Shown here in pieces: positions 15,709-18,700 of a DNA stretch of 64,000 nt. This stretch comes from Trypanosoma brucei (Eukaryota), in NCBI GenBank assembly GCA_000002445.1, contig CH464491.1:4928001-4992000 (forward strand), in the 5' to 3' direction. A program made the position numbers. Each line of letters opens with the position of its first letter. The first letter of the stretch is position 1.

Positions 15709-18700
15709 GAGAGTGTACATATACTAATACAATAGAAAAACGTTGACCAAAAACTGGAAACAAGAAGTATAGGCGCTTTAAACAATAGAAAGGGTGAAAT
15801 GGCTGTAATTGGGTGATAGGAATGCTGAGTGGTAAAGAAAAATGGCACAAAGACAATTATTAGGAAAAAAGAGTGCAGAGAAGAAGAGAAAGAGGGATGA
15901 AGATGAAATATTAACAGTTTATAGCAAAATATTACGATCAGTGTCATCATAATATACACGGTTAATGATAGAGGAGGCTGTATTCAGTATACAGGTTAAA
16001 TGGAGTCGCTACCTTTTGCAAAGCATGAAACAAAAAAGATGAAAAGGAAGAAAAATACGTAGTATGATAAAGTGATGCATGAAAGCATAGTGTGAAATAG
16101 TATAGTCAATTATCGATCCACACATTTTACTAAAGTGGGTTAGATAGAAGCGCAGAGGTGATGGTATAAAAAGGTGTAGAAATGGTTAAAAAGCCATGAT
16201 GATTGGAGTATCGTGAAGGTTCAAGATGGGTGGGGCGGCTGACAAAGAAACTAGTAAACTTCTTACTGTATTTTAGTGAATCAGTGACTCAAAACTGAAA
16301 TTACCATTAAAATGTATAGAGAGAGACTGTTTATTCAACAACTGACATGCATGTGGCTGAAGCTAACTTTGAGAACAAAAAAGTAGATAAATGGTGAAAG
16401 ATAAGCTTCTGTCACCGAGTTTACACCATTTTACAGCCAAATAACATCAATACAAAGTCATTAATTACATTTGTAAACACTTTTTACTTTACCAAACACC
16501 TTAGTAAAGAACTCACTTTTTTGTTTTAATTTTTCTACAATTTTATAAGATATTTAAAGTTTTCATTAGTATGGTATTAGTATTTTATGAATTATATAAG
16601 ATGTATCTATGCAAAACTATGTTGTTTAACTTTTATTGTTATGAGTATTAATCTACTTGTGTCGGTATGCAGCTTGTTTGGTGAGGGTGACCCTATTTCA
16701 CTAGAAGTTGTTGAGGATGAGTGTATTAAATTTGTTTCGAAAGATGTAAGGATGATTTGGAAAGCCGACGATTATTTGGTTGTAGCTGGAATACCTTCCA
16801 TAGATAATGATGGGAGATTGAGAAGGCGCAACCTTCAGAGGGAAACGTGTTGGAGTTATCCCGAAGCGGCAAGGAAGGTAAATAATTTTACTGGAAAGTT
16901 GTCTGTAGTATATACCCTTTCACCTCATACAAATAGCAATTGCGAGCTCAGAGTAATCGCTGAAGAAGAGGCGGAGTTAAAGCAGGATATTATTATTTTA
17001 CCTGTTTGCGATGTGAATCCAACAACATATAAAAAAGTTGGAGATGCGGGTAATTGGGGGTGGAAAGCGGAACTCACGATGAGCAGGAAGACGTATTAGT
17101 GGTTCAAATTTGCAGTTGAAATATTTAAACCAACTATTTCCTATATAATGAAAGCAGATGATGATATTTTTATGAGGGTGCTATTGTATGTAAAATATCT
17201 GGAAGTGCTTCCAAGGGATAGATTGAATATGGGGAGGGCGATTGGATATTATAAAGATTTTAGTGACGAAATTACATGGCATACTATTGGTTATGCGTCC
17301 ACTTCATCTAGGGATGTATTTGAGGAAATTGTTGATTATAAAACTCTGAAAGGCCGAGTCAAGTCACACGTTAAGTTACGAAATTTAGAAGCATATATTG
17401 ATTTTAGACCACTCAATAAAGACATAATGGTTGGCGAAGTTATAAGAAATAAATTTAAATTTAAGGGGTTATTGACTGTGGATATGCAGGATTGTCGTCA
17501 TGTAATGCATCCCGGTAGATAATTTCAAGAAATAAAACCAGCAAATACAATAGGAATTCATCATATAAGAGAGACAGATTATGCATTTTTAGTGGAATTA
17601 TGGAAAAAACTGGACTCACCACGGCGTCAGGAACAGAGAATAACGTATTTGCAACCGTTTTTGGAGAAAGCAAAATGATTGCACTCTAAAATAAGCACAA
17701 GCTGCTGTGCGCAAGCTGATAAACAGGCTTCATAAAGGGGAAATGGAAACGAGAATAAGACCACATTCACCAGAAAACCATAACATCAGAAATGACCACG
17801 CAAGTGGCGAATACGAAAAGACAAACGGCCACACAAGCGCTTCTTATCAACAAAGTTTAGGCTCTAGGTCCAAGCAAGCGAGCAACATTATAAACCGTGC
17901 ACAATTACACTATGCTAACACAAACTTTTTTTATACTGAAGACCCTGTTTCTTATGCAATATATTACGGCCCCGGAAACAGTGGCAGTGCAACCCGGATA
18001 CAGCGGTGCATAGCACAAAGAATTATGCTGACTCGTTGAACGAGCTCAACGACCGCCAGCCCAGGTTGTAAACAAACTCGAAGCAAAAGCGGCTACGGAC
18101 ACGATTGCACTATTTAACATGACGTTCAGCGAAGACAGCTGGCAAAGGCTTTGCGCATAAGACACCGAAAACAACAAGTGGGAGAGGGTATAAGTCAAAT
18201 ACACTGACCAGGGACAAAAAACAGACTGGGCAAAAAACTTGGAAAACTGGAGAAAAGTGGCGAAAGACCTCGAGGCCAAAGCAAACGACGACGCATGGAA
18301 AGCGAAGCACGCCAAGCCAACCATCCCACACGCTCTACACTTAGCGCAGCGGAACCTAAGGCAACTAGCAAGACAAGCGGCAGCGGAGTACCTGCTGTAT
18401 CAGACACTGGTAATAACCGCCAATGCTGCCGACATCACAGCGGTGCTCATAAACCTAAGCTCAGCCCTTAACGGCGCCACCGCTCAATTGACGAAGCCGG
18501 TAAAGCCGACAGACTTGGGAATAGCAGCAAGCGCAAGAACAACGGGGATGTCTGGTGGCAACAAAGTCGGACAAAAGCTTCTATACGACCTAGCATGCTT
18601 ATGCGTAGCGGAAACCAAATACTACAGCAAGGTATGCGTAGAATTGACCGGCAAAAACGGCTGGACCAGCACACAAGGTAACACAATAACCGATGCAACC

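What the first reader, a model, noticed from the sequence alone, without database searches (positions are those of the whole stretch)
16587..17522. GT31 glycosyltransferase copy B is one nonsense codon from intact
The 312-codon frame has all hallmark GT31 motifs in order: TM anchor, RRRNLQRETCW, DIIILPVCDV, MKADDDIF (DxD), GYASTSSRDV, DIMVGEV and DCRHVMH. It is broken only by a TAG at 17097-17099. Copy A (2372-3471) is more decayed with at least two frameshifts. Copy B is either a very recent pseudogene or a sequencing/strain polymorphism hiding a functional subtelomeric glycosyltransferase. The T. brucei GT31-like family includes enzymes that build N-glycan and GPI side chains.
Basis: partly seen in the sequence, partly recalled or inferred. 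Interest (0 to 1): 0.55.

Follow-up and report, generated by a model that had tools for sequence, protein, structure and literature searches.

The report
Decayed subtelomeric glycosyltransferase pseudogene in trypanosome

Summary
Positions 16587-17522 read as 312 codons with one internal TAG (17097-17099) and every quoted motif.

The claim "one nonsense codon from intact" does not hold:
- Homology to full-length family members runs in the same frame through the TAA at 17520-17522. It continues to a TGA at 17676-17678.
- The relic is therefore 364 codons with two premature stops.
- The second stop sits beside 3-nt and 6-nt in-frame gaps relative to copy A and cuts off the conserved C-terminal "HH" block.
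- The invariant Glu of the family's ED motif is Lys (KDIMVG, 17418-17420). All 24 other sequences compared have Glu.

The window is T. brucei brucei TREU927 chromosome 11, because four of its VSG ORFs are exact matches to annotated TREU927 proteins. Copy B lies in a silent VSG array, between a 70-bp repeat and a VSG pseudogene.

CAZy files this family as GT67, a beta3GT-derived family, not GT31. Published work already describes subtelomeric GT67 pseudogenes.

dN/dS between copies A and B is about 0.19 with dS about 0.8. Both copies therefore diverged mostly under constraint and died late relative to their split.

Verdict: a known kind of pseudogene, of low interest.

The parts
16587..17678 (+). 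Full extent of GT67 glycosyltransferase relic 'copy B': 364 codons, two internal stops, terminal TGA
   Evidence: Translation. tblastn homology runs in one frame from 16587 to at least 17645.
16614..16679 (+). Type II membrane anchor (residues ~10-31, KLCCLTFIVMSINLLVSVCSLF)
   Evidence: Kyte-Doolittle maximum 2.25 over 19 residues. Aligns with the hydrophobic N-termini of family members.
17055..17060 (+). WG motif (NWGW), retained
   Evidence: Alignments; motif definition from PMC9472816.
17097..17099 (+). Premature stop 1: TAG where copy A has TTG and family members have Leu, Met or another sense residue
17142..17165 (+). YIMKADDD: the Y(I/V/F)xKxDDD donor/metal-binding motif, retained but downstream of stop 1
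   Evidence: motif definition from PMC9472816.
17418..17435 (+). Degenerate motif 3: KDIMVG instead of EDIMVG (GAA to AAA at 17418-17420)
   Evidence: Glu is present in all 24 other aligned sequences: copy A plus 23 family proteins. Copy A has GAA. Motif ED(A/V/I/L/M)(M/L)x(G/A) from PMC9472816.
17520..17522 (+). Premature stop 2: TAA, flanked by 3-nt and 6-nt in-frame gaps relative to copy A
17559..17564 (+). Conserved C-terminal HH of the family (IHHIRETDY), encoded only downstream of both stops
2372..3471 (-). Paralogous relic 'copy A': stops at 3016-3018 and 2839-2841, a 4-nt frameshift near 2665-2668, canonical ...WAEFRC* end at 2372-2374
15130..15715 (+). VSG-type 70-bp repeat block with a long (TAA)n run and a 100-N assembly gap, about 870 nt upstream of copy B
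17950..19400 (+). VSG pseudogene (b-type) directly downstream of copy B, spread over several frames; boundaries approximate
   Evidence: Pfam VSG_B hit on ORF 18239-18901. Three-frame translation. The next 70-bp repeat lies at 19663-19762.

Best explanation
[quoted passage not shown] It lies in a silent subtelomeric VSG array of T. brucei brucei TREU927 chromosome 11.

It belongs to an old inverted segmental duplication. Each arm carries a 70-bp repeat followed by a GT gene and then VSG upstream sequence. The two arms point away from an ingi-like retrotransposon.

After duplication both GT copies stayed under purifying selection for most of their divergence. Each was then inactivated independently.

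Copy B acquired four changes:
- a TTG-to-TAG nonsense change;
- a second stop (TAA) beside small in-frame deletions;
- a Glu-to-Lys change in the ED motif;
- a degenerate C-terminus.

Any translation product would be a 170-residue membrane-anchored stub without the DxD motif, so no transferase activity is expected.

Shown: the lesions, the homology, the genomic setting and the dN/dS value. Inferred: the order of events and the absence of activity.
For: [quoted passage not shown] Pfam PF01762 scores above its cut-off.
- Second stop and true extent: tblastn alignments cross the TAA at 17520 in frame. The 364-codon frame is shown.
- Motif loss: E278K at a position invariant in 24 of 24 other sequences. 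Copy A has GAA there.
- Independent lesions in copy A.
- Selection history: Nei-Gojobori dN/dS = 0.19 (bootstrap 95% interval 0.13-0.27), dS about 0.8. Differences at codon positions 1:2:3 are 62:40:114. There is no rise in dN/dS downstream of the TAG (0.14 against 0.24 upstream).
- Setting: VSG Pfam hits and ingi-like RT, endonuclease and RNase H ORFs. 70-bp repeats lie at cassette boundaries. Inverted matches link both GT copies and their downstream flanks.
- Source: four window VSG ORFs are exact matches to TREU927 proteins EAN80666-EAN80669 on a 5,261,801-nt contig.
- Not annotated as protein: neither ORF fragment of copy B is in the 15-billion-protein collection.
- Literature: predicted GT67 pseudogenes are excluded from the 19 genes counted (PMC8477195). 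Subtelomeric expansion of lineages 1 and 7 is described (PMC5853035). Multiple GT pseudogene copies occur and the family varies between strains (PMC4288722). Glycosyltransferases make up about 1% of subtelomeric genes (PMC2854126).
Against: - No reads or population data were available, so the lesions cannot be shown to be fixed or free of error.
- The low dN/dS shows that decay is recent on the scale of the A/B split. An intact allele in another strain is therefore not excluded.
- The effect of E278K on activity is inferred from conservation only.
- I could not check whether this exact locus already carries a pseudogene annotation in TriTrypDB.
Confidence: 0.86

Rival explanations
1. Copy B is a functional glycosyltransferase gene. 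On this reading the TAG is a sequencing error or a TREU927-specific polymorphism.
For: - There are only two stops in 364 codons and no frameshift.
- dN/dS is 0.19 between copies.
- The TM anchor, WG and DDD motifs are retained.
Against: - At least three separate defects would have to be errors: TAG at 17097, TAA at 17520 with adjacent in-frame gaps relative to copy A, and E278K in an invariant motif position.
- The tail lacks the family's W-x-E-x-x-C ending.
- No protein more than 71% identical exists in a 5.8-billion-cluster database that includes several Trypanozoon genomes.
- The gene sits in a silent VSG array next to VSG pseudogenes.
Confidence: 0.04
2. Copy B is an ancient pseudogene that has drifted neutrally since the A/B duplication. 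On this reading both copies were dead on arrival.
For: - Both copies are disrupted.
- They share the unusual RVLLY (Pro to Leu) change.
- The flanks are only 71-79% identical.
Against: - Neutral drift predicts dN/dS near 1 and equal change at all codon positions. The observed value is 0.19, with 62:40:114 differences at positions 1:2:3.
- None of the disabling lesions is shared between A and B.
Confidence: 0.06
3. The relic persists as functional DNA rather than as a gene. It could be a donor for segmental gene conversion into intact subtelomeric GT67 genes. It could also be a passenger that is co-transposed with the adjacent VSG, because it lies between the 70-bp repeat and the VSG.
For: - Position between a 70-bp repeat and a VSG pseudogene.
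- The low dN/dS of two dead copies could reflect occasional refreshment from intact paralogues.
- The literature proposes transposition of these genes between subtelomeres (PMC5853035).
Against: - No conversion tract or near-identical paralogue was found; the best protein identity is 71%.
- PMC5853035 states that these genes rarely recombine.
- Nothing here requires more than ordinary pseudogene persistence.
Confidence: 0.04

Closest known systems
T. brucei GT67 family (UDP-Gal/UDP-GlcNAc-dependent glycosyltransferases, also called UGTs; characterised members TbGT3, TbGT8, TbGT10, TbGT11, TbGT15)
   Same: - Type II anchor, WG motif, YIMKADDD motif and conserved C-terminal HH block, with similar overall length.
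- The best database hits are TREU927 proteins of this name.
- Subtelomeric location, as described for lineages 1 and 7 (PMC5853035).
   Different: - Two premature stops, KD instead of ED in motif 3, in-frame gaps relative to copy A and a degenerate tail.
- It is a relic and does not encode a family member.
Tb11.0730 / Tb11.0740 (CAJ17049.1 and CAJ17050.1; P0005 and P0007), TREU927 chromosome 11
   Same: - This is another GT67 copy in the same EMBL annotation series as the window's VSGs.
- It is split into a 171-aa and a 183-aa ORF.
- Its break is one codon away from copy B's TAG: it reads ...TYL-stop where copy B reads ...TY-stop.
   Different: - It is only 71-72% identical to copy B, so it is a different locus.
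- Its second ORF retains EDIMIG and runs on through the HH block.
Copy A in this window (2372-3471, minus strand)
   Same: - Paralogue in the opposite arm of the inverted duplication.
- 84% mean identity over the aligned DNA.
- Shares the RVLLY change.
- Also lies downstream of a 70-bp repeat unit.
   Different: - Its lesions are different and independent: two other stops and a 4-nt frameshift.
- It keeps EDIMVG and the canonical ...WAEFRC end.
Metazoan GT31 beta3-glycosyltransferases (for example B3GNT2; Pfam PF01762 Galactosyl_T)
   Same: - Presumed GT-A architecture with a DxD motif.
- The Pfam domain matches around the DDD motif.
- The literature derives GT67 from an ancestral beta3GT (PMC9472816).
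   Different: - Sequence similarity is marginal: a family profile against PDB B3GNT2 gives E about 0.3, over the DDD region only.
- CAZy places the trypanosome enzymes in a separate family, GT67.

Membership tests
CAZy GT67 (kinetoplastid beta3GT-derived glycosyltransferases) | Significant full-length sequence homology to known members | tested here: met
CAZy GT67 | N-terminal type II membrane anchor | tested here: met
   Hydrophobic stretch at residues ~10-31, Kyte-Doolittle 2.25.
CAZy GT67 | WG motif (motif 1 in PMC9472816) | tested here: met
   NWGW at 17052-17063, aligned with WG in family members.
CAZy GT67 | Y(I,V,F)xKxDDD motif (motif 2) | tested here: met
   YIMKADDD at 17142-17165. 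It lies downstream of the first stop.
CAZy GT67 | ED(A/V/I/L/M)(M/L)x(G/A) motif (motif 3) | tested here: not met
   KDIMVG at 17418-17435. Glu is present in all 24 other aligned sequences.
CAZy GT67 (as a functional gene) | Uninterrupted ORF of roughly 350-400 codons reaching the conserved C-terminal HH block | tested here: not met
   Stops at 17097-17099 and 17520-17522. The HH block at 17559-17564 lies beyond both.
CAZy GT67 (as a functional gene) | Glycosyltransferase activity or expression | not testable with these tools
   No expression, proteomic or read data were available.
   25.8 bits against a cut-off of 23, covering only residues 166-208. The pass is marginal and local.
CAZy GT31 | Sequence-level relationship to solved GT31 enzymes | tested here: inconclusive
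   A family profile against PDB gives only B3GNT2 at E about 0.3, over 31 residues around DDD. The literature assigns the trypanosome family to GT67 (PMC9472816, PMC8477195).

The most novel reading that the evidence does not exclude
Subtelomeric GT67 relics placed between a 70-bp repeat and a VSG might not be inert. Copy B could be intact in other T. brucei strains, which would be a presence/absence polymorphism of a working glycosyltransferase. Alternatively it could act as a sequence donor or passenger in VSG-cassette gene conversion. The low dN/dS of two dead copies leaves both readings open.
Probability: 0.06. Interest if true: 0.4.

Novelty: already known. Interest (0 to 1): 0.1.

Why it matters
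It matters little. The GT67 family builds the N-glycan and GPI side chains of the trypanosome surface, and its subtelomeric members vary between strains. A truly intact hidden copy would have added one gene to a repertoire of about 20.

The evidence shows a multiply disabled relic in the TREU927 reference genome, of a kind already noted in the literature. The one mildly useful point is that dN/dS of about 0.19 between the two relics shows these subtelomeric copies were kept functional for a long time before recent, independent loss. That fits a birth-and-death turnover of redundant isoforms.

Tried and rejected
- Exact-sequence look-ups of the two copy B ORFs, of P0002 and P0003, and of a window VSG in the contig index found nothing. 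No DNA of intact T. brucei paralogues could therefore be obtained, and branch-specific dN/dS could not be computed.
- A relative-rate test at the protein level gave B-unique against A-unique replacements of 34:18, 36:18 and 33:18 with the three closest paralogues (p 0.02-0.05). With T. cruzi and T. rangeli outgroups the counts were about equal, 15-17 against 16-19. I treat this as inconclusive. It cannot separate faster decay of B from A simply being phylogenetically closer to those paralogues.
- A count of unique deviations at otherwise invariant positions in the small alignment gave 3 for B and 3 for A. The count alone is not discriminating; only the E278K position held up in the wider family alignment. 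E160K (WGWK) falls at a position that is variable family-wide and was dropped.
- Supplementary files of PMC5853035 hold no gene list.
- One call failed on coordinates containing stops and was replaced by three-frame translation.
- Structure prediction was not run. It cannot add to the stop-codon and motif evidence for a pseudogene.

Full report
**Observation.** Positions 16587-17522 on the plus strand translate as 312 codons with one internal stop, TAG at 17097-17099. A hydrophobic N-terminal segment (residues ~10-31, Kyte-Doolittle 2.25) is present. The open frame is far beyond chance. Extended to its real end it has 3 stops in 364 codons. Composition-matched shuffles give a mean of 30 (minimum 13 of 5000), and the other two forward frames have 32-33.

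The TAA at 17520-17522 was taken as the natural stop, but the same frame continues as FQEIKPANTIGIHHIRETDYAFLVELW... up to a TGA at 17676-17678. tblastn with the T. brucei protein P0002 and the full-length T. cruzi protein P0010 aligns straight through that TAA, to 17594 and 17645 respectively. This covers the family's conserved 'hHHh-E-(D/E)Y' block.

- Copy B has 3-nt and 6-nt in-frame gaps relative to copy A beside this stop.
- Its last ~30 residues do not match the family ending W-x-E-x-x-C, which copy A retains as WAEFRC.
- The relic is therefore 16587-17678 with two premature stops.

**Motif audit.** The literature defines three motifs for the T. brucei enzymes: WG, Y(I,V,F)xKxDDD and ED(A/V/I/L/M)(M/L)x(G/A) (PMC9472816). 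Copy B keeps NWGW and YIMKADDD but reads KDIMVG at the third.

- I aligned copy B with copy A and 23 diverse full-length kinetoplastid representatives. They came from an exhaustive HMMER search and the first homology search.
- The Glu is present in all 24 other sequences.
- Copy A has GAA where B has AAA at 17418-17420.
- The first stop is a single change from Leu: TTG in copy A, TAG in B.

From my own knowledge, not tested here: in solved GT31 enzymes the Asp of this ED motif is the catalytic base, and a C-terminal His helps bind the metal. Losing the HH block and altering the ED motif should therefore be disabling.

**Family identity.**
[quoted passage not shown] T. cruzi and T. rangeli proteins follow at 34-37%.
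- Pfam Galactosyl_T (PF01762) passes its cut-off only marginally and locally: 25.8 against 23 bits, residues 166-208.
- A family profile finds only B3GNT2 in the PDB, at E about 0.3.
- CAZy places these trypanosome enzymes in GT67, a kinetoplastid family derived from an ancestral beta3GT (PMC9472816, PMC8477195). 'GT31' is right only at the superfamily level.

**Copy A and selection.** Copy A (2372-3471, minus strand) carries TGA at 3016-3018, TAG at 2839-2841 and a 4-nt frameshift near 2665-2668. None of these is shared with B.

A codon alignment of A and B over 329 codons gives the following:
- Nei-Gojobori dN = 0.15, dS = 0.82, dN/dS = 0.19 (bootstrap 95% interval 0.13-0.27).
- Differences at codon positions 1:2:3 of 62:40:114.
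- dN/dS of 0.24 upstream of the TAG and 0.14 between the TAG and the TAA, so there is no sign of long relaxation downstream of the first stop.

The two copies are therefore old paralogues that stayed under purifying selection for most of their divergence. They were inactivated late and independently. It refutes a dead-on-arrival duplicate.

A protein-level relative-rate test hinted at more B-specific replacements: 33-36 against 18 with the three closest paralogues. It was balanced with T. cruzi and T. rangeli outgroups, so it is inconclusive.

**Genomic setting.**
- Four intact VSG ORFs of the window are exact matches to TREU927 proteins EAN80666-EAN80669 (XP_829778-XP_829781) on a 5,261,801-nt contig. 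The window is therefore T. brucei brucei TREU927 chromosome 11.
- The window is a silent VSG array. Pfam VSG domains recur, and 70-bp repeat units recur at cassette boundaries: 14 matches where 0.02 are expected.
- An ingi-like retrotransposon with endonuclease/RT and RNase H/zinc-finger ORFs occupies 8552-13027 on the minus strand.
- Copy B lies about 870 nt downstream of a 70-bp repeat block (15130-15715, containing a 100-N gap). It lies about 270 nt upstream of a frame-broken b-type VSG pseudogene.
- Copy A lies downstream of an inverted 70-bp unit at 4177-4195.
- Inverted matches link the two GT copies (79%) and segments downstream of each (1365-2141 against 20696-21389, 71-79%). In the B arm an extra ~3 kb separates the GT from the shared flank; it holds the VSG pseudogene and another 70-bp repeat.
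- Together this looks like an old inverted segmental duplication that diverges from the region holding the retrotransposon.

**Annotation status and literature.**
- Neither ORF fragment of copy B (170 aa, 124 aa) exists in the 15-billion-protein collection. It has not been deposited as a protein.
- A sister case has been deposited. Tb11.0730 and Tb11.0740 (CAJ17049 and CAJ17050) belong to the same EMBL series as the window's VSGs (CAJ17042-44). They are the two halves of another GT67 copy broken one codon from B's TAG.
- The three codons there, TAT-TTG-TGG, are each one substitution from a stop. Independent hits at this spot are therefore unsurprising (inference).
- Published work counts 19-20 GT67 genes 'excluding predicted pseudogenes' (PMC8477195).
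- It places the expanded lineages 1 and 7 in subtelomeres (PMC5853035).
- It reports multiple glycosyltransferase pseudogene copies and strain variability (PMC4288722).
- It lists glycosyltransferases as about 1% of subtelomeric genes (PMC2854126).

**Verdict.** Copy B is a GT67 pseudogene with at least three disabling changes, not a gene one codon from function. It lies in a reference genome's silent VSG array, is of a kind already described, and is of low interest. A segregating intact allele in other strains cannot be excluded without read data, but I consider it unlikely.

Noticed in passing
window 16651-16725 (frame +1) against P0002 residues 1-25: The annotated N-terminus of the 'intact' TREU927 protein XP_803396.1 (P0002, 345 aa) matches a frame-shifted reading of the membrane-anchor region (72% over 25 residues). 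That gene model therefore probably lacks its anchor through a frameshift. The closest annotated relatives are all short (254-345 aa) beside the 371-449-aa representatives aligned and 384-aa TbGT10. This subgroup may consist largely of relics.
   Followed up: partly
outside the window (TREU927 chr 11; Tb11.0730 and Tb11.0740, P0005 and P0007): A third GT67 relic in the same annotation series as the window's VSGs is split into 171-aa and 183-aa ORFs. Its stop is one codon away from copy B's TAG.
   Followed up: partly
window 7685-8284 and 12952-13554: An inverted repeat of about 600 nt, 97-98% complementary over most of its length (81% in the outer 112 nt), brackets the ingi-like retrotransposon ORFs. 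The right arm overlaps the element's 5' end. This suggests a second, oppositely oriented ingi/RIME 5' fragment abutting the element's 3' end.
   Followed up: no
window 15303-15708: A very long (TAA)n run within the 70-bp repeat block is interrupted by a 100-N assembly gap (15363-15462). The true length of this repeat is unknown.
   Followed up: no
window 13647-14843 (+): A 398-aa ORF with no Pfam hit looks like the body and Cys-rich C-terminus of a VSG. It starts just beyond the retrotransposon's 5' end and may be a VSG truncated by the insertion.
   Followed up: no
window 1365-2141 against 20696-21389: The downstream flanks of the two GT relics are homologous in inverted orientation (71-79%). 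Only the B arm carries an extra ~3 kb between the GT and that flank, holding a VSG pseudogene and a 70-bp repeat. This is an insertion in B or a deletion in A.
   Followed up: partly
window ~46000-50000: The orientation of VSGs and 70-bp repeats switches from plus to minus (a convergent point). This coincides with the strongest GC skew in the window (0.28-0.33).
   Followed up: no
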